This document shows, piece by piece, positions 10,642 to 17,945 of a DNA stretch of 64,000 nt; position 1 is the first letter of the stretch, and each line of letters begins with the position of its first letter. Where the stretch lies: assembly GCF_054482595.1 (NCBI RefSeq), contig NZ_CM137008.1, one strand, 5' to 3'. Under the pieces are notes generated by a model. The model was not told the origin of the DNA. It saw nothing but the letters and a program-made list of their open reading frames with translations, and ran no database searches. The position numbers were made by a program, and so were the translations under genes.

Positions 10642-10692
10642 ACTGTAGCAGTGTTGTATCTCGTATAAACAGGGAACTAAATATGCTGTTAA

Positions 10693-11574
10693 TCATGGGG
10701 CAGCATCATTAGGAGGGTATACATTGACCGATGTACTTACACGATGAAACTCTAGTATGTTGCCAGTATGGTGACCAGGGATAGCTTCAAACACCCCAAG
10801 AAATCGGTACAGTGTCCTGTTCAACTCATCACGAGAATGTGCCATAACAATTCGTTTATCCCAGCGTTCTGTGTATCCCTCATCATCCTTTATATTCCGC
10901 TCTATGATTTTGTTACCATCATCAGTCAATTCATTTCCCCAATCTGAATTTCCATATAGTTTTGGAAACCAAACCATGCATTTTCCTGATAGACCCATTG
11001 CTTCACTTATGTGAGAAGGAATGCTCCAACCGCCAGACTGATGATGTCCTTTGTTGTAACCGAAACAGTTCAAAGCATCCCGGTGGTATCTGAAGACGGC
11101 ATCTGGACCTACAGATATCCTTCCTGCCTTAAGATGAGGACGAGCTGTATATTTATTATCATAATCCCATTCTTTGAATTTTTTATCTTTAATCATTCTA
11201 TTTTTACGATTGCGTATCAACTCAATAAATTCATTGATATAACGATCGAAAATTTCAAGACTTATTTCGCTGGCGGGAATTCTTTTCTCTAAAAATCCTG
11301 TAACTTCAGTAATATCCATACGACGTTTCGCATCATCTATTTGTGATTGCTCACTGTTGTGATGCCCTTCATCAATTTCAAGATAAAGTTCCAGTTGTGG
11401 GAAAAATAAATCTGCCAAATAGATTTTTCCATTTTCTTTTCTGACACATTGCTGGCAGACAAATTCAATGTCGGGATCATTTAAAAGATGATAAATGCGA
11501 GTTACTGCATAATGTTCCCATCGTTTTTTTGAGGTTTTCGTAAGTGAACGTAGGATGTAATCAGTTTTATCCAT
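10693..11574 (-). CDS. Hypothetical protein, 293 aa, AT-rich, inside the satellite-like island
   Basis: Clean ORF; ELYLEIDEGHH and C-terminal KRIVMAH (Rx4H-like) motifs noted but no confident family assignment. Confidence 0.55.
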   Translation of the reverse strand: MDKTDYILRSLTKTSKKRWEHYAVTRIYHLLNDPDIEFVCQQCVRKENGKIYLADLFFPQLELYLEIDEGHHNSEQSQIDDAKRRMDITEVTGFLEKRIPASEISLEIFDRYINEFIELIRNRKNRMIKDKKFKEWDYDNKYTARPHLKAGRISVGPDAVFRYHRDALNCFGYNKGHHQSGGWSIPSHISEAMGLSGKCMVWFPKLYGNSDWGNELTDDGNKIIERNIKDDEGYTERWDKRIVMAHSRDELNRTLYRFLGVFEAIPGHHTGNILEFHRVSTSVNVYPPNDAAP

Positions 11575-11845
11575 TTATATGCCTTCCTTCTTTGTTCTTC
11601 ATGTAATGTGCTTTTTCTTATGGCGATAGTGTTACCTATCGCCATAAGATGCGTTAGTATTTTTTTAATCTAACTGTTTATACTGTTAACTTCGATGATT
11701 TTCTATTTTATATCATGTGGTTAAGCGGTGGTGAGTTGGTGAGGAGTGAAAAGTCGAATCTTCCCCTTTGTGATTTTTGCTCGTTCTGGATCTGCCCGGT
11801 CAGGCGATGTGGTGGGGGGGGGTAAAAAGTTTTTTTAGGTTTTAC

Positions 11846-11937
11846 TGTTCACACTGTTCACCTCTGGTTTTTTATTAATAATTTCATGGTGATACAGGGT
11901 GAAGATACGGTGAAGGGTGAACAGTGGATTGTTCACC
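11846..11937. repeat. Iteron cluster of TGTTCACC octamers in both orientations (P4 ori/crr-like alpha-binding repeats)
   Basis: Full octamers or close variants at 11846-11853, 11855-11862, 11916-11923 (GGTGAACA) and 11930-11937, plus partial GGTGAAG copies at about 11898 and 11909; the last two form a palindrome GGTGAACAgtggatTGTTCACC. Confidence 0.6.
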
Positions 11938-11989
11938 TTGTGGCAATGGCCAGAAAGGAAAAGACCGGCTGTTGCCGGTCTGAGTGAGG

Positions 11990-12565
11990 TTATGTTGCTA
12001 CGGGTTCGTCGCATTTCGGTAGCCAGTCGCCGTAGCTTTCCTCTTTCAGCGACAGATTGGTTTGTATCCCCTGCTTAGTGTGCCGCTTCTCATAATTCAG
12101 GCCGTACTCTTTCAGCATCATGGGCAGCCCCAGCCCGAACATTTTCAGGCTGAGTACGTTCCTATACCCGTTAGCCTCCATATAGGCCAGATACGCGTGA
12201 TAGAGATATTTACGATAATTACGCGGGATGATGCTGGCATTCCCCATAAACATCCCGTTGGTCTGCGGGAGCATTTCCAGATAGCCGCAAAAATCAAACG
12301 TAGGGTCAGCATCGCGCTTGATGCTGAGCGCCTCGTCGGAATTCTGCTGTGACTGGAGCAGTGCGCAGGCTGCCATCGGGTCGCTGAACTTCTGCATGAG
12401 CTGGCGCACAATCACGGCCAGCTCGCGCGCAATTTTATCCCTGAGCTGCGGGTCGCGTTCCTCCGGCGCAATTTGCTCCGGGAAGTGAATAATCACCCGG
12501 CGACGTGACACACCACCGCTGCGGTCGGTGAAGCGCATGGGGTTATTGTTCACTGCCAGAATCAC
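11990..12565 (-). pseudogene. Truncated primase/helicase (P4 alpha-like, D5/SF3 family) C-terminal remnant
   Basis: Frame stays open upstream to about 12670 without a start codon (…LKAITGGDAVSVDPKYQNPYSTHIPAVILAVNNNPMRFTDRSGGVSRRRVIIHF…); far shorter than an intact alpha (~770 aa). Confidence 0.5.
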
Positions 12566-12722
12566 CGCCGGAATGTGTGTTGAGTACGGGTTCTGGTATT
12601 TCGGGTCAACCGAGACCGCATCGCCGCCGGTGATGGCCTTAAGCCCTGCGCCGTCACCGCCGCCGCGTAAAGTACAGGGCTGCTACAGCTCGCCGTTCCG
12701 GCATTAATCAGGAGAGAGACTC

Positions 12723-13289
12723 GTGACCACTGTGACCATACAGCAGGCCTTTGAGGCCTGTCAGACGAACAAAAATACCTGGCTGAAACGTAAAGCCGAA
12801 CTGGCAGACCTTGAACGGGAATACCGTGAACAGCTCCTTGCCGGTGACGAACAAATCCCGCGCAGAATGCAGGATTTGCGCGACAATTTCGACGTGAAAA
12901 AATGGGAGATTAATCAGGCCGCCGGTCGTTATATCCGCTCACATGAGGAAGTGCAGCACATCAGCATCCGCAACCGGCTCCATGACTTTATGCAGTAGCA
13001 CGGCGCGGAGCTGGCCGCCACGCTGGCACCTGAGCTGATGGGGTATAACGAACAGCTTCCCGCAGTAAAACAGAGCGCCATGCAGCACTCGGTTGATTAT
13101 CTGCGTGAAGCCCTGTCGGTATGGCTGGCTGCAGGTGAAAAAATTAATTATTCCGCGCAGGACAGCGATATTTTAACGGCCATCGGATTCAGGCCTGATG
13201 CGGCCTCGCGGGATGATAATCGCCAGAAATTCACCCCGGCACAGAACCTGATTTACACCCGCCGACGTGCAGAACTGGCCGCACGGTAG
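12723..13289 (+). pseudogene. psu: psu-like (P4 polarity suppression protein) gene with one in-frame TAG at 12999..13001
   Basis: ORFs 12723..12998 and 13038..13289 are in the same frame separated by a single amber; N-terminus MTTVTIQQAFEACQTNKNTW resembles recalled P4 Psu; combined length 188 codons. Confidence 0.55.
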
Positions 13290-13690
13290 CACGCAAAAAA
13301 ATCCGCAAAATTCCGCTATTTTTTCCGAAAAAAGCCATGCATCCATAAGGTGCATGGTTTTTCATGCAAATCCCCGTATTTTATTTTCCTCACCGCGCCA
13401 GTACCGGCGCGGCCTGAGCCGGTTCATGCACCTGCATTAAAAGCGACCTCTTAAGCGGGCAGGCGTGGCGGGGAGAGCATTGCGCGCGGAGTGGGTGTTT
13501 TATTTTTTGTATGTCACATAAACTTAAGGTATGCAGTACGTAGCTAGTTTCACTAATACTGGGACGAAAAGAATGGTGCGTTTGTAAAAATGTATTTTAA
13601 TTTTTGGATTGTGATACAGAGTAAATTTCATTTAATTTTGTATTTTAATTGCGGTAAGCTATAACAAACTTGAAAAGGAATTATAATCAC

Positions 13691-15352
13691 ATGAGGTATG
13701 TTGAAAATATGAAAATTCTAGTAACTGCACCTTCAAGAAAAAATCACCCAAAAAATAATGTATTGTATGATTTTATATTGCAACAAGATGATTGGAATGA
13801 TTTTAGTTTTATCACTAAGTATCATTTATACATTACAACGAAACTTACTGGTCTTGATGAAATAGAGTATGCTGGGGTTGTTAAAATTATAAAAAAAGAT
13901 CAGTCTGAAGCTGATTACTACATGGTTGAAGAAGGCGAGTTTTCATATTTGAGTGACGAGTTTTGTTCTGTGGGACAATCTCTTGATTATTATGGGAGGC
14001 TCTCTGAATTGGGGAGTGAAATTTGTGAGGGGATATTGACATCATTACGCGACATTAATATGTTTGATTATGTTTCTGAGGGTTTCAAAAATGAAAGAGC
14101 TTGGGAACGTTCTATCATGAGAGACTTAAATAATGATGATGATATTTTTATTCTTCCAAAGTTTATAATAAAAAATCAGTTCTCGGCTATACCTAGTATA
14201 GACATGAAGTTTTCATTTATGTATTCAGGAATGATTAATACTCTTTCGTTTGATTTCGATTCAATACAATATGGATATTTTGAAAGTGAAAAACTACCAT
14301 GTAGAATGTCCGTAATTGTAGGCCGGAACGGTTGTGGGAAGAGTACAACATTGGCAAGACTTTCTAGGGTTGCTTATTCTTCAACTCAGGACAGAAAAAA
14401 AGAACAGATAGCCAAAATTGGTGAAATTCTTCCAGAGGGATTAGGTTTTCCGAAAATAATCAACCTTTCATACAGTGCTTTTGATAGTTTTCAAATACCC
14501 GGGTGTACTTTTAAAGAAAAGAAACAGCTAAGGCAAGACATACTTGATGGGAAAGGTAGGTATATATATTGCGGAGTCAGGGATGTTGGTGCTGAATTGG
14601 ATTATGTATTGGCTAATGTAGATGAAAACAATATGGATATAGAGTTTATTACATTAGATAGGCAAGAGAGAACCATATTAAAACCTCTTGAAGTACTTAG
14701 TGAAGAGTTTTATGGTGTCTTGATAAAAATACATAAAGATAGTGATAAGTGGAATTTGTTTAATAAAGTGATGATGAAGTTGAGAGAAGAGGTTTCATTA
14801 TCTGAAATTATTGATGAAATCTTTAAAGATGATTTTATTCTTAAATCTAAAGAATATTTTCATAGGTTGAGTACAGGGCATAAATTTGTTTTGCATTCGA
14901 TGGCGCATATTTTGTTGTATATTGAAAAAAGATGCCTTGTTTTATTTGATGAGCCTGAAACTCATTTGCACCCGCCATTGCTTGCGGTTTTAATGAGCGC
15001 TCTGAGAATTGTTTTGAACGAAGTCGATGCTTTTGCTATTGTTGCTACTCATTCACCTGTGGTAGTACAAGAAACATTAAGTAAAAATGTTAATGTTATA
15101 ACTAGAAATGGGGAGTTTACTGATTTTCAACGACCTGAAATTGAAACTTTTGGTGAGAATATTGGAGCAATAACATCATCAGTATTTTCATTAACGACTC
15201 AAATAACTGATTATCATGATGAATTAGACAAGCTAATAATAGAATATAAAAATAATAATAATCCATTAGATGACATTGAAAAATGTTTTGATACAGGTCT
15301 TAGTACACAAGCAAGGTCTTATGTAATATCTAAATTAGCGGTAAAAGGATAA
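13691..15352 (+). CDS. ABC-type (AAA_15/AAA_21-like, SMC/RecF/OLD superfamily) ATPase with ~190-aa N-terminal extension; PtuA-like candidate defence ATPase
   Basis: Walker A VGRNGCGKST, signature-like LSTGHK, Walker B LVLFDEPETHLHP, H-loop ATHSP. AAAGGAA SD before ATG 13691; alternative starts TTG 13670 and ATG 13709. Strongly AT-rich. Confidence 0.8.
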   Translation: MRYVENMKILVTAPSRKNHPKNNVLYDFILQQDDWNDFSFITKYHLYITTKLTGLDEIEYAGVVKIIKKDQSEADYYMVEEGEFSYLSDEFCSVGQSLDYYGRLSELGSEICEGILTSLRDINMFDYVSEGFKNERAWERSIMRDLNNDDDIFILPKFIIKNQFSAIPSIDMKFSFMYSGMINTLSFDFDSIQYGYFESEKLPCRMSVIVGRNGCGKSTTLARLSRVAYSSTQDRKKEQIAKIGEILPEGLGFPKIINLSYSAFDSFQIPGCTFKEKKQLRQDILDGKGRYIYCGVRDVGAELDYVLANVDENNMDIEFITLDRQERTILKPLEVLSEEFYGVLIKIHKDSDKWNLFNKVMMKLREEVSLSEIIDEIFKDDFILKSKEYFHRLSTGHKFVLHSMAHILLYIEKRCLVLFDEPETHLHPPLLAVLMSALRIVLNEVDAFAIVATHSPVVVQETLSKNVNVITRNGEFTDFQRPEIETFGENIGAITSSVFSLTTQITDYHDELDKLIIEYKNNNNPLDDIEKCFDTGLSTQARSYVISKLAVKG

Positions 15353-15357
15353 TACAT

Positions 15358-16203
15358 ATGTGGACACTACCTTTACCAGATGATGCGGATAGAATGAGCG
15401 AGTTATTAACCGCTTTAACGTATAAAAATGGAAATCCTAAGTATGCTTTAACACAAGATGAAAAGGATAAAATTGAAACTATTTATACTTTATATCACGA
15501 TCGTAAAGCAACTCCCTGTGCTGAATTTTTAGCAGAGGAAATAAGTGATGAAACCCAAAATGCTATAAAAACAGCTTATTCAGAAGTGCAAATAAATGGA
15601 CGGCTTTCAACCCTTCGCTCAAGGATTTTATTAAGTTCTAAAAAATGCCCATTATGTGGGATCGAATCATCAACCGACCTAGATCATTATCTTCCCGAAT
15701 CAATATATAAATGTCTCGCAGTATATTCAAGAAACCTGATACCGACCTGTCATAAGTGCAATAATAAAAAAAGAGCTGGTGTAGCAGAAAATGGAGTTGG
15801 ATTTATTCATGTGTATTATTTTGATGAGCCCGATGGTGTATTTTTCGTTGCCAATACTGAAATGATAGATGGTGCTTTAGTAATTGATTTTAATATCAAT
15901 ATGATCGAGGGTATGACTCGAGAGGTATATGATTCATTATGCTTTCAAAATAGAGTTGTTAACCTAAATGAAAGGTTAAAGATGGAAGCGAATGATTTTT
16001 TAGGGGGGCTCTATACTTCACTTGAAGAAACATATAATTCTGCAGGCCAAGAAGGATTAAGATTATTTCTAAAAAGAACTAGGGATGACTATACCAGACG
16101 TTATGGGCTTAATCATTGGAGAAGAGCATTGATAGATAGTCTATCCGATAATGTGGAGTTCCTTGACGCTGGTTTTATTACTGCCTTAGGAACTCCAGAG
16201 TGA
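15358..16203 (+). CDS. HNH endonuclease-fold protein, 281 aa; PtuB-like candidate defence nuclease
   Basis: HNH motif KKCPLCG…DLDHYLPES…N…CHKCNNKK; starts 5 nt after the ATPase stop with AAAGGA SD (translational coupling); ends 2 nt before the convergent integrase. Confidence 0.8.
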   Translation: MWTLPLPDDADRMSELLTALTYKNGNPKYALTQDEKDKIETIYTLYHDRKATPCAEFLAEEISDETQNAIKTAYSEVQINGRLSTLRSRILLSSKKCPLCGIESSTDLDHYLPESIYKCLAVYSRNLIPTCHKCNNKKRAGVAENGVGFIHVYYFDEPDGVFFVANTEMIDGALVIDFNINMIEGMTREVYDSLCFQNRVVNLNERLKMEANDFLGGLYTSLEETYNSAGQEGLRLFLKRTRDDYTRRYGLNHWRRALIDSLSDNVEFLDAGFITALGTPE

Positions 16204-16205
16204 GT

Positions 16206-17399
16206 TTACTGGTGGGGATGAATATGTCGTCCCCACCAATTCATCAATTCAATTCTTGCGTGTAAATATGTTGAGCGATTGTAGGCTTTTCGTACTTCAT
16301 TTCTATCTGAATGAGCAAGAGCAGCCTCAATTACATCAGCATTAAAACCGGCTTCATTCATTGCCGTACTTGCAATCGAACGTAAACCATGTGCAACCAA
16401 TTTCCCACCATAACCTATTCGCTTAAGTGCAGCATTGGCAGTTTGGCTATTCATAGGTTGTTTTGGATTATTTCTGCTGGGAAAAACATGTTCTCGATGT
16501 GCACTAATAGGTTTCATCACATCCAGAATTTCTAATGCTTGTGGTGATAAAGGAACAATGTGTTCACGCTTAGCCTTCATTCGTTCGGCGGGAATCGTCC
16601 AGAGTTTGGCATTGAGATCGATCTCTACCCACCGAGCACCAGAAGCCTCAGAAGGGCGCACTAGGGTCAGAAGCTGCCATTCAATAAGACAGCGAGTCGG
16701 AACAGACAGATTCGACATGACCAGGGAACGCATAAGCTTAGGTAATTCTTCTGGCCGTAGCGTGGGCATATTTTGCTTTTTGGGTTTCTCAAAAGCCATT
16801 CCTACACCCGAAGCCGGGTTGGCATCTATCAGACCGGTATTAACCGCATAAATCATTATTTCGTTAATACGCTGAACTAGGCGACGAACCGTCTCTAATG
16901 CGCCACGTGCTTTGATTGGCTCCAATGCTTCAACAATCGTTCTGGCCTTTATATCCTGAACGGGCATCGCACCGATTGCCGGGAACACGTCTTTATCCAA
17001 AGAACGCCAAATATCCTTTGCATAATCCTCTGTGACACTTCTGCTTTTAATCTGGAACCAGTTAGCGGCCACAGTTGAGAAAATGCTGTCTAACTCAATC
17101 TGGCGTTGTGCTGACGCTTGCTCCTGTTGCTGTTGTGGATCCATGCCTTGCGCGAGCGTGGTTAAGTGCTGGTCGCGTATCTGACGAGCTGCTGCGAGTG
17201 TAAGGGCAGGGTATGAGCCGAGACTCAAATTTGTGCGGCTGCTGCTTCCCGGTCGTTGATAACGGAAGCGTCAGAGTTTTTTACCGGAGGTTTTGACGAG
17301 TAAGAACAGGCCATCACCATCATGCAGGGTGAAGTCTTTTTCGCGGGGTTTCGCTTTGAGGATTTCGTTGTTAGTGAGGGGGCGTGTAATGCGCGCCAT
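16206..17399 (-). pseudogene. intA: P4-family tyrosine integrase (intA-like) interrupted by an in-frame TGA after codon 42
   Basis: N-terminus MARITRPLTNNEILKAKPREKDFTLHDGDGLFLLVKTSGKKL, then TGA (complement 17271..17273), then the same frame continues RFRYQRPGSSSRTNLSLGSYPALT… into the 340-aa ORF. Confidence 0.8.
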
Positions 17400-17449
17400 G
17401 TCTGGATCCCTTCCATAATTGGTACACGTTTAATGGACCACAGTATAGC

Positions 17450-17477
17450 GTGTACCTAAACGTGTACCAATTTTCTC
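17450..17477. repeat. 28-bp direct repeat, right copy (between integrase and ssrA)
   Basis: Identical to 10614..10641. Confidence 0.8.
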
Positions 17478-17582: not shown

Positions 17583-17945
17583 TGGTGGAGCTGGCGGGAG
17601 TTGAACCCGCGTCCGAAATTCCTACGTCCTCGGTACTACATGCTTAGTCAGTCTTTACATTCGCTTGCCAGCTGCGGACGGACACGCCACTAACAAACTA
17701 GCCTGATTAAGTTTTAACGCTTCAACCCCAGGCAGGGCCTCCACGCGATCTCTTTTGGGTTTGACCTCTCTTGATCCCCGTCCTAAGAGCGGAGGCTAGG
17801 GAGAGAGGGCTCTAAGCAGGTTATTAAGCTGCTAAAGCGTAGTTTTCGTCGTTTGCGACTATTTTTTGCGGCTTTTTACGAGGCCAACCGCCCCTCGGCA
17901 TGCACCTTGGGTTTCGCAAATCCCGTCGAATCCAGAATCAGCCCC
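17583..17945 (-). ncRNA. ssrA: tmRNA (SsrA), 363 nt
   Basis: Reverse complement begins GGGGCTGATTCTGGATTCGACGGG and ends …GGTTCAACTCCCGCCAGCTCCACCA, with the tag-coding region between. Confidence 0.95.

What the first reader, a model, noticed from the sequence alone, without database searches (positions are those of the whole stretch)
10693..11574. Orphan 293-aa AT-rich protein at the island edge: possible second defence or abortive-infection gene
It is a clean ORF with strongly AT-biased composition at the far end of the island. No domain could be assigned by eye; the ELYLEIDEGHH segment and a C-terminal KRIVMAH (Rx4H, HEPN-like) motif are only weak hints of nuclease function.
Basis: inference. 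Interest (0 to 1): 0.5.

Follow-up and report, generated by a model that had tools for sequence, protein, structure and literature searches.

The report
PvuRts1I-type hydroxymethylcytosine-dependent restriction enzyme gene
The "orphan" ORF is an ordinary, already annotated member of the PvuRts1I/AbaSI family of restriction enzymes, which cut only DNA carrying (glucosyl-)5-hydroxymethylcytosine such as that of T4-like phages; it sits at the edge of a decayed P4-like satellite prophage in E. coli.

Summary
The ORF is real: 10693-11574, minus strand, 293 aa, 38% GC against 48% for the window. It is not an orphan.

- **Family:** It aligns end to end with the solved enzyme PvuRts1I (57% identity, E=5e-114) and with AbaSI (E=7e-52).
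- **Domains:** Pfam finds PvuRts1I-like_N plus SRA. A PADLOC "Type II methyl-directed restriction enzyme" model matches full length (E=4e-122).
- **Existing annotation:** RefSeq already names the identical gene "AbaSI family restriction endonuclease" in 15 of 5426 complete E. coli genomes.
- **Functional residues:** Every mutationally validated catalytic residue and every base-pocket residue of PvuRts1I is present.
"ELYLEIDEGHH" really is the nuclease active-site motif. "KRIVMAH" is a strand of the SRA pocket, not a HEPN motif. Its Arg matches pocket Arg244 and its His is not conserved.
- **Likely mechanism:** a single-protein, modification-dependent (Type IV/IIM) restriction enzyme against hmC phages. 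It is not abortive infection.
- **Context:** It is the last gene inside a degraded P4-like satellite at ssrA, between the primase/crr end and an att-like repeat. That position is a recently described minor defence hotspot. A Septu-like ATPase/HNH pair occupies the main psu-int hotspot.

Ordinary, low interest.

The parts
10693..11574 (-). CDS, 293 aa: PvuRts1I/AbaSI-family modification-dependent restriction endonuclease
   Evidence: ORF. PADLOC mREase_II PDLC03210, E=4.2e-122, residues 1-291. PDB 4oky/4oq2 PvuRts1I, E=5e-114, 57% identity. The identical gene is annotated 'AbaSI family restriction endonuclease' in RefSeq.
11161..11574 (-). N-terminal Vsr-like, atypical PD-(D/E)XK nuclease domain (about aa 1-138)
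   Evidence: Pfam PF21598 PvuRts1I-like_N, residues 5-92, E=1.3e-26. Domain limits follow PvuRts1I residues 1-140 (PMC4027163).
11359..11412 (-). Active-site segment D55...E66-I-D68-E69-G-H-H72 (ADLFFPQLELYLEIDEGHH)
   Evidence: Maps to PvuRts1I D57, E68, D70, E71 and H74, whose mutation abolishes or reduces cleavage. D55, E66 and E69 are invariant in 33 family members. K17 and E20 are also conserved, at 11515-11526.
10723..11133 (-). C-terminal SRA-like domain that reads the modified cytosine (aa 148-284)
   Evidence: Pfam PF18491 SRA, residues 148-284, E=3.4e-22. [quoted passage not shown]
10852..10971 (-). Predicted flipped-base pocket: W202, P204, K205, Y207, N209, W212, N214, E225, Y234, R241
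   Evidence: These equal PvuRts1I W205, P207, R208, Y210, A212, W215, N217, E228, Y237 and R244. W202, P204, W212 and N214 are invariant in the family. N209 is the AbaSI-type residue rather than the Ala of PvuRts1I.
11582..11589 (-). Shine-Dalgarno-like AAGGAAGG, 7 nt before the ATG
   Evidence: Read directly from the sequence.
11616..11649 (-). Perfect 14-bp inverted repeat with a 6-nt spacer, 42 nt upstream of the start; a possible operator or 5' hairpin of unknown role
   Evidence: The RNA fold has z=-5.7. It is partly conserved upstream of the 85%-identical homologue in L009.
10614..10641 (.). 28-bp direct repeat (att-like) bounding the element on the ypjA side; the gene's stop codon lies 52 bp from it, inside the element
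   Evidence: Exact repeat of 17450-17477. A related sequence sits at the same place next to the intact satellite of strain CFS3292.
17450..17477 (.). Second copy of the 28-bp repeat, between the integrase pseudogene and ssrA
11824..11938 (.). P4 crr-like iteron cluster (three exact TGTTCACC octamers), downstream of the primase remnant; a second, degenerate copy lies at about 11650-11766
   Evidence: The name crr and its binding by the alpha protein come from my own knowledge of P4.
11990..12658 (-). Truncated P4 alpha (primase-helicase) gene, C-terminal part only
   Evidence: RefSeq annotation 'missing N-terminus'. 84% nt identity to the intact gene of CFS3292.
12723..13289 (+). psu pseudogene with an internal stop
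13670..16203 (+). Intact Septu-like ATPase (560 aa) and HNH (281 aa) pair in the canonical psu-int hotspot; a separate system
   Evidence: PADLOC PDC-M01A 1.3e-99, PtuA 1.3e-73, PDC-M01B 2.6e-37. RefSeq names them AAA ATPase and HNH.
16206..17416 (-). Integrase pseudogene with an internal stop
17583..17945 (-). ssrA (tmRNA), the chromosomal landmark of the integration locus
   Evidence: ARAGORN and RefSeq.

Best explanation
The ORF encodes a solitary modification-dependent restriction endonuclease of the PvuRts1I/AbaSI family, classed as Type IV or 'Type IIM'. The mechanism below is taken from characterised relatives and is inferred for this protein. The enzyme forms a homodimer through its N-terminal helices. 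Each C-terminal SRA-like domain recognises a 5-hydroxymethylcytosine or glucosyl-5hmC, probably by flipping it into a tryptophan-lined pocket. The two N-terminal Vsr-like PD-(D/E)XK domains, which need Mg2+, then make a double-strand cut at a fixed distance. That cut falls about 11-13 nt from the modified base on its own strand and 9-10 nt on the other. Cutting is best midway between two modified cytosines about 22 bp apart. E. coli DNA contains no hmC, so no protective methyltransferase is needed. T-even-type phages with hmC or glucosyl-hmC DNA are cut on entry. The gene is cargo of a P4-like satellite integrated at ssrA and lies in the minor 'primase-att' hotspot. The satellite has since decayed: alpha is truncated, psu and int are pseudogenes, and the sid/delta/regulatory genes are deleted. 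Its two defence loci remain intact. Shown here: family membership by sequence, domain architecture, conservation of the functional residues, and genomic position. Inferred: expression, activity, substrate preference and the phage phenotype.
For: Full-length similarity to PvuRts1I structures 4oky/4oq2 (E=5e-114, 57% identity, 1-287 against 1-290) and to AbaSI 4par (E=7e-52). Pfam finds PvuRts1I-like_N plus SRA. PADLOC mREase_II matches at E=4e-122. RefSeq names the identical protein WP_021557107.1 'AbaSI family restriction endonuclease'. All residues whose mutation inactivates PvuRts1I are present: K17, D57, E71, H74, W215 and E228, here K17, D55, E69, H72, W212 and E225. Twenty family members, down to 29% identity to PvuRts1I, were purified and all had measurable activity on hmC or glucosyl-hmC T4 DNA (PMC3627594). 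No methyltransferase lies next to it here or next to homologues elsewhere. Its position inside the att-like repeats, next to crr and alpha, is shown. A primase-att defence hotspot in P4-like satellites is described in bioRxiv 10.64898/2026.02.27.708500.
Against: This E. coli allele has no experimental data, and it is not among the characterised homologues. The consensus scan found no sigma-70 promoter upstream, so expression is unproven. The surrounding satellite is decaying, so the gene could be on its way to loss. The 15 E. coli copies are at least 99.9% identical, so they give no evidence of purifying selection within E. coli. NCBIfam HMMs gave no hit.
Confidence: 0.9

Rival explanations
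1. HEPN-like RNase or other abortive-infection effector. The Rx4H motif KRIVMAH would be the catalytic site and the infected cell would be killed.
For: Only the presence of the string R-x4-H at aa 241-246.
Against: The segment lies inside the SRA-like domain (Pfam 148-284) and aligns with a strand of the PvuRts1I SRA domain. The His is not conserved: H in 19, R in 12, Q in 1 and K in 1 of 33 members. The Arg is the pocket residue Arg244 of PvuRts1I. There was no HEPN hit in Pfam or PADLOC.
Confidence: 0.01
2. A Vsr-type very-short-patch mismatch-repair endonuclease, as some JGI records label homologues. It would be a housekeeping repair enzyme.
For: The N-terminal domain has a Vsr-like fold (PMC4081097). 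Several metagenomic homologues carry the automatic name 'very-short-patch-repair endonuclease'.
Against: [quoted passage not shown] Similarity to a biochemically defined hmC-dependent enzyme runs the full length. The gene sits in a mobile-element hotspot and occurs in only 15 of 5426 E. coli genomes, which does not fit a housekeeping gene.
Confidence: 0.02
3. An intact-looking but silent or functionally dead remnant, carried passively in a decaying satellite and giving no phenotype.
For: The neighbouring satellite genes are pseudogenes or truncated. No consensus promoter was found. The E. coli copies are identical, so they cannot demonstrate selection.
Against: The ORF is full length with every functional residue present and has a good Shine-Dalgarno sequence. 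Both defence loci are the only intact genes of the element, while all three recognisable core-gene remnants (alpha, psu, int) are truncated or disrupted, which is the pattern expected if defence is what is being kept. Diverged alleles at 85% and 65% aa identity are also intact in the same kind of context.
Confidence: 0.07

Closest known systems
PvuRts1I (plasmid Rts1, Proteus vulgaris; PDB 4OKY, 4OQ2)
   Same: Same length (293 aa). 57% identity over the whole protein. Same N-terminal atypical PD-(D/E)XK plus C-terminal SRA architecture. Same catalytic residues (K17, E20, D57, E68, D70, E71, H74) and pocket residues (W205, P207, Y210, W215, N217, E228, Y237, R244). Solitary gene without a methyltransferase.
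   Different: A 2-residue and a 1-residue deletion relative to PvuRts1I. Pocket position A212 is N209 here and R208 is K205. In PvuRts1I the A212N change lowered the preference for hmC (PMC4157451), so selectivity may differ. The gene is carried on a chromosomal P4-like satellite remnant rather than a conjugative plasmid. It is biochemically uncharacterised.
AbaSI (Acinetobacter baumannii; PDB 4PAR, 4PBA, 4PBB)
   Same: Same family and domain order, E=7e-52. It shares the Asn at the pocket position equivalent to PvuRts1I A212 (WFPRLYENKDW against WFPKLYGNSDW). RefSeq uses this enzyme's name for the family.
   Different: A much more distant sequence; in Table 1 of PMC3627594 AbaSI itself is only 35% identical to PvuRts1I. 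AbaSI is 321 aa in the crystallised chain (317 aa in Table 1 of PMC3627594), with an insertion in the nuclease domain. AbaSI prefers beta-glucosyl-hmC and PvuRts1I prefers alpha-glucosyl-hmC. Which applies here cannot be predicted.
PpeHI and other characterised PvuRts1I homologues (Borgaro & Zhu 2013, PMC3627594)
   Same: All are dimers of about 290-320 aa that cut at N11-13/N9-10 from (g)hmC. Among the characterised set, only PpeHI (64.6% identity to PvuRts1I) is closer to the prototype than the window protein (57%).
   Different: No E. coli member was in that set.
Defence cargo of P4-like satellites (Rousset et al. 2022, PMC9122126; bioRxiv 10.64898/2026.02.27.708500)
   Same: A defence gene carried by a P4-like satellite. 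The Septu-like pair lies in the psu-int hotspot and this gene lies between the primase and an att site, a hotspot said to hold 7% of P4 defence systems.
   Different: The satellite here is degraded. Carrying defence loci in both hotspots is reported as rare, about 1% of P4 elements. Neither paper's main text mentions PvuRts1I or any Type IV restriction enzyme.

Membership tests
PvuRts1I/AbaSI family of hmC-dependent restriction endonucleases | Full-length sequence similarity to the prototype enzymes | tested here: met
   PvuRts1I E=5e-114, 57% identity, residues 1-287 against 1-290. AbaSI E=7e-52. PADLOC mREase_II E=4e-122.
PvuRts1I/AbaSI family of hmC-dependent restriction endonucleases | Two-domain architecture: N-terminal Vsr-like/atypical PD-(D/E)XK nuclease plus C-terminal SRA-like domain, in a single chain of about 290-320 aa | tested here: met
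   Pfam PF21598 (residues 5-92) and PF18491 (residues 148-284). Length 293 aa.
PvuRts1I/AbaSI family of hmC-dependent restriction endonucleases | Catalytic residues K17, E20, D57, E68, (D70), E71, H74 (PvuRts1I numbering) | tested here: met
   K17, E20, D55, E66, D68, E69 and H72 are all present. They are invariant or nearly invariant in 33 homologues. Their roles come from PMC4027163 and PMC4157451.
PvuRts1I/AbaSI family of hmC-dependent restriction endonucleases | SRA pocket residues W205, P207, W215, N217, E228 (plus Y210, Y237, R244) | tested here: met
   W202, P204, W212, N214, E225, Y207, Y234 and R241 are present. A212 is replaced by N209, as in AbaSI.
PvuRts1I/AbaSI family of hmC-dependent restriction endonucleases | Solitary gene with no cognate methyltransferase | tested here: met
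   No methyltransferase lies within about 12 kb on either side. Homologues in Klebsiella and another Enterobacterales genome are also solitary.
PvuRts1I/AbaSI family of hmC-dependent restriction endonucleases | Homodimer; Mg2+-dependent cleavage N11-13/N9-10 from 5hmC or glucosyl-5hmC; little or no cutting of C or 5mC DNA | not testable with these tools
   Needs purified protein and T4gt, T4-alpha, T4-beta, XP12 and lambda DNA substrates, as in PMC3627594.
PvuRts1I/AbaSI family of hmC-dependent restriction endonucleases | Restriction of T-even phages in vivo | not testable with these tools
   Needs plaque assays.
HEPN nucleases (Rx4-6H) | A conserved Rx4-6H catalytic motif in an all-alpha HEPN domain | tested here: not met
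   H246 varies (H 19, R 12, Q 1, K 1 of 33). The motif lies inside the SRA domain. No HEPN profile hit.
Vsr very-short-patch repair endonuclease | A single-domain Vsr protein that matches the Vsr profile | tested here: not met
   Pfam reports PvuRts1I-like_N and SRA only, with no Vsr family hit. The resemblance is at the fold level only.
Septu (PtuAB) system | Being a component (PtuA ATPase or PtuB HNH) or an operon partner of the pair | tested here: not met
   The protein matches no Septu model. It lies on the opposite strand, about 2.1 kb away, separated by the alpha and psu pseudogenes. The pair itself matches PDC-M01A/B and PtuA.
Cargo of a P4-like satellite (primase-att hotspot) | Located between the alpha primase/crr and the att site of a P4-like element | tested here: met
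   A 28-bp repeat bounds the element. crr iterons and the alpha 3' end lie directly upstream. An intact satellite at the same chromosomal site lacks the gene. The hotspot is described in the preprint. The exact recombination core of att was not established.

The most novel reading that the evidence does not exclude
The window allele and its 85% and 65% identical relatives (L009, L005) may form a sub-lineage of PvuRts1I-like enzymes that has long travelled with P4-like satellites at the crr/att end. In one relative the gene lies between the two crr repeats. This lineage would carry an AbaSI-type Asn in a PvuRts1I-type pocket and a conserved upstream palindrome. It could therefore have a distinct glucosyl-anomer or modification preference, or a satellite-linked regulation. 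That would make it a helper-safe weapon, since P2 DNA is unmodified, aimed at T-even competitors.
Probability: 0.15. Interest if true: 0.3.

Novelty: already known. Interest (0 to 1): 0.12.

Why it matters
It matters little beyond correct annotation. It corrects an 'orphan' call to a well-understood enzyme family with solved structures and commercial relatives (AbaSI, PvuRts1I). There are three modest points of interest. (1) The family is rare in E. coli, found in 15 of 5426 complete genomes, all with the same allele in the same island. (2) It illustrates the minor primase-att defence hotspot of P4-like satellites. It also shows an element that has lost its satellite functions yet keeps two intact defence loci: Septu-like, plus a modification-dependent restriction enzyme that would complement it against hmC phages. 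(3) The natural A212N-type pocket variant could interest people engineering 5hmC-mapping enzymes.

Tried and rejected
- **NCBIfam HMMs:** no hit at E<=1, even though RefSeq names the protein. The RefSeq name must come from another rule type.
- **PHROGs:** only insignificant hits, E>=0.05.
- **Promoter scan of 10350-12050:** no sigma-70-like site upstream of the gene. The only hit is internal, so the promoter is unidentified.
- **ssrA 3'-end duplication at the ypjA-side boundary** (the usual att for ssrA islands): only an 8-bp match, GCTGGCGG, at 10544-10551. This is too weak to call, so the 28-bp repeat is reported only as att-like.
- **MAFFT alignment of the window against the CFS3292 junction:** uninformative in the middle. 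It was replaced by BLAST.
- **Literature search for crr iterons:** no usable open-access source. The crr label rests on my own knowledge and on similarity to an intact satellite.
- **HEPN, Vsr-repair and 'part of Septu' readings:** considered and rejected (see rival explanations and membership test).
- **Structure prediction:** judged unnecessary given 57% identity to a crystal structure, so it was not run.

Full report
**Observation.** A good Shine-Dalgarno-like AAGGAAGG lies 7 nt upstream. The ORF is AT-rich, with 38.1% GC and 29.3% GC3, against 48.4% for the window. Both quoted peptide segments exist, ELYLEIDEGHH at aa 62-72 and KRIVMAH at aa 240-246. The statement that no domain can be assigned is not.

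**Identity.**
- PADLOC-DB matches the whole protein (residues 1-291 of 293) to its model PDLC03210, 'Type II methyl-directed restriction enzyme', at E=4.2e-122.
- Pfam finds PvuRts1I-like_N (PF21598, residues 5-92, E=1.3e-26) followed by SRA (PF18491, residues 148-284, E=3.4e-22).
- Against PDB sequences, the best hits are the two crystal structures of PvuRts1I (4oky, 4oq2; E about 5e-114). The alignment runs 1-287 against 1-290, with 57% identity and 74% positives. AbaSI follows (4par; E=6.9e-52).
- The identical DNA occurs in 15 of 5426 complete E. coli genomes, always once and always on the chromosome. RefSeq already annotates it as 'AbaSI family restriction endonuclease', WP_021557107.1.
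- A more sensitive blastn found no further diverged copies in E. coli.
- The large protein database holds 216 homologues at E<=1e-5, nearly all with the same two Pfam domains.

**Functional residues.** I mapped the residues that two structural papers identified by structure and mutagenesis.
- Kazrani et al. (PMC4027163) name Glu20, Asp57 and Glu68 as the atypical PD-(D/E)XK site, with Lys17 supplying the lysine. Mutation of Glu71 abolished activity and Lys17Ala left at most residual activity.
- The same paper describes a pocket formed by Trp205, Pro207, Trp215, Asn217 and Glu228, with Arg244 and Tyr237 nearby. W215A and E228A are inactive.
- Shao et al. (PMC4157451) list Asp57, Leu58, Pro61, Glu68, Asp70, Glu71 and His74 as conserved across the PvuRts1I family. 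Mutants of these residues lost activity, except D70A, which kept some.
- In the window protein these are K17, E20, D55, L56, P59, E66, D68, E69 and H72, and W202, P204, W212, N214, E225, Y234 and R241. All are present.
- In an alignment of 33 diverse homologues (41-85% identity to the query), K17, E20, D55, P59, E66, E69, W202, P204, W212 and N214 are invariant.

'KRIVMAH' is not a HEPN motif. It lies in the SRA domain, its Arg is the pocket Arg244 equivalent, and its His is H in only 19 of 33 sequences and R in 12.

One pocket position differs from PvuRts1I. A212 is N209 here, the residue that AbaSI also has. In PvuRts1I the A212N mutation lowered the preference for hmC. Family members also differ in their preference for alpha- or beta-glucosyl-hmC. 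I therefore cannot predict the exact selectivity.

**Mechanism (inferred from the family).** Borgaro & Zhu characterised 20 homologues sharing as little as 29% identity with PvuRts1I.
- All behave as dimers and are most active on DNA with two 5hmC about 22 nt apart.
- Most cut at N11-13/N9-10 from the modified cytosine.
- They show little or no activity on unmodified DNA.

The AbaSI structures show dimerisation through the N-terminal helices. Two Vsr-like catalytic sites are brought together and the SRA-like domains sit about 70 Å apart. The window protein is closer to PvuRts1I than all but one of those enzymes, so the same mechanism is the most likely by far. It would act as a solitary enzyme that cleaves incoming hmC or glucosyl-hmC DNA of T-even-type phages and leaves host DNA untouched. 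This is direct restriction, not abortive infection. No E. coli member was in the characterised set, so activity of this allele is inferred and not shown.

**Surroundings.** RefSeq annotation of strain Santai gives this gene order: ileY, ypjCB, ypjA (autotransporter), this gene, a primase fragment 'missing N-terminus', psu with an internal stop, an AAA ATPase, an HNH protein, an integrase with an internal stop, ssrA (tmRNA), smpB. The region around the gene is identical to the window, and ARAGORN confirms ssrA.

This is a decayed P4-like satellite at the ssrA locus.
- An exact 28-bp direct repeat (10614-10641 and 17450-17477) brackets it. The gene's stop codon lies 52 bp from the left copy, inside the element.
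- Strain CFS3292 has an intact P4-like satellite at the same chromosomal site, carrying alpha, an Icd-like protein, a delta-like protein, psu, a NACHT gene in the hotspot, and an integrase. It has no gene between ypjA and alpha.
- BLAST between the two shows shared flank up to 10564, then crr plus the alpha 3' end at 11824-12660, psu at 12736-13487 and int at 16229-16847.
- That leaves 10565-11823 as a cassette specific to the window's element. It contains only this gene and its short flanks.
- Three exact TGTTCACC octamers lie at 11855-11937; 8 occur in the whole window against 1.9 expected. They match the two iteron clusters of the intact satellite. From my own knowledge of P4, this is the crr region bound by the alpha protein.

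[quoted passage not shown] It also says only about 1% of P4 elements carry systems in several hotspots. The gene is thus cargo of that minor hotspot.

The ATPase/HNH pair occupies the main hotspot and is Septu-like: PADLOC PDC-M01A 1.3e-99, PtuA 1.3e-73, PDC-M01B 2.6e-37. Septu has been reported in P4 hotspots before. The two loci lie on opposite strands, about 2 kb apart, with two pseudogenes between them. I see no reason to treat them as one system.

**Relatives elsewhere.**
- The 85%-identical homologue (L009) and the 65%-identical one (L005) are also flanked by P4 crr-like iterons and by sequence similar to the att-side flank. In L005 the gene lies between two iteron clusters. This sub-clade therefore seems to travel with P4-like satellites.
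- More distant homologues (62% identity or less) are solitary insertions among housekeeping genes in Klebsiella michiganensis and another Enterobacterales genome.
- Others sit on conjugative plasmids of Providencia, Moellerella and Proteus, including Rts1 itself (NC_003905, 56.7%).
- A few Streptococcus suis phages also carry one.
- None of the inspected loci has an adjacent methyltransferase, apart from a Dam-like gene about 6 kb away in L011.

**Rivals.** HEPN/abortive infection and Vsr-type repair each fail a defining feature (see the membership test). The only rival with some weight is that the gene is silent or dying in a decaying element. No consensus promoter was found, and the identical E. 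coli copies cannot show selection. Against this, it and the Septu-like pair are the only intact genes left in the element, and all functional residues are present.

**Verdict.** This is a real gene, correctly guessed to be a defence nuclease. It is a known and already annotated kind: a PvuRts1I/AbaSI-family hmC-dependent restriction endonuclease. Interest is low. The small added value is the context (the minor hotspot of a degraded P4-like satellite, and rarity in E. coli) and a natural pocket variant whose selectivity is untested.

Noticed in passing
window 10614-10641 and 17450-17477: An exact 28-bp direct repeat (GTGTACCTAAACGTGTACCAATTTTCTC, itself containing two GTGTACC heptamers) brackets the 6.9-kb element. 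It lies 105 bp from the 3' end of ssrA rather than overlapping it, so the true att core is unclear. A related but non-identical sequence sits at the same position in strain CFS3292.
   Followed up: partly
window 11616-11649: A perfect 14-bp inverted repeat (TCTTATGGCGATAG / CTATCGCCATAAGA, 6-nt spacer) lies 42 nt upstream of the start codon. The RNA fold has z=-5.7. It is partly conserved upstream of the 85%-identical homologue in L009. It could be an operator or a 5' hairpin, and no T-run follows it.
   Followed up: partly
window 11990-17416: Degraded P4-like satellite. Alpha is reduced to its C-terminal third and joined almost directly to psu; the sid, delta and immunity genes are deleted. 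psu and the integrase each carry an internal stop. The Septu-like ATPase/HNH pair (13670-16203) remains intact.
   Followed up: partly
window 11650-11938; L005:200-300 and 1355-1450; L002:9342-9613: The intact satellite has two crr-like iteron clusters 180 bp apart. In the window only one keeps exact TGTTCACC octamers and the copy next to the restriction gene has degenerated. In L005 the homologous restriction gene lies between the two clusters, which suggests rearrangement or separate insertion events within crr.
   Followed up: partly
window 11814-11822: A homopolymer run of nine G (nine C on the gene strand) lies between the two crr-like segments. It is not conserved in L009.
   Followed up: no
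window 3419-4873: An AT-rich 484-aa ORF (about 35% GC) lies upstream of ypjA. It matches no PADLOC model. RefSeq calls the corresponding gene 'YpjCB family protein' and marks it frameshifted or with an internal stop in other strains.
   Followed up: no
window 2593-2668: ARAGORN calls this tRNA-Met (CAT), while RefSeq annotates the same gene as tRNA-Ile (ileY). This is the usual lysidine-modified CAT anticodon case.
   Followed up: no
L011:6341-8987 and L010:1830-4566: In L011 a 328-aa homologue overlaps the end of a DUF4942 gene inside a mobile-element-like block carrying a Dam-type methyltransferase and RdgC. In L010 a 69%-identical homologue sits next to a 504-aa HNH_2 protein. These may be other defence neighbourhoods.
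   Followed up: no
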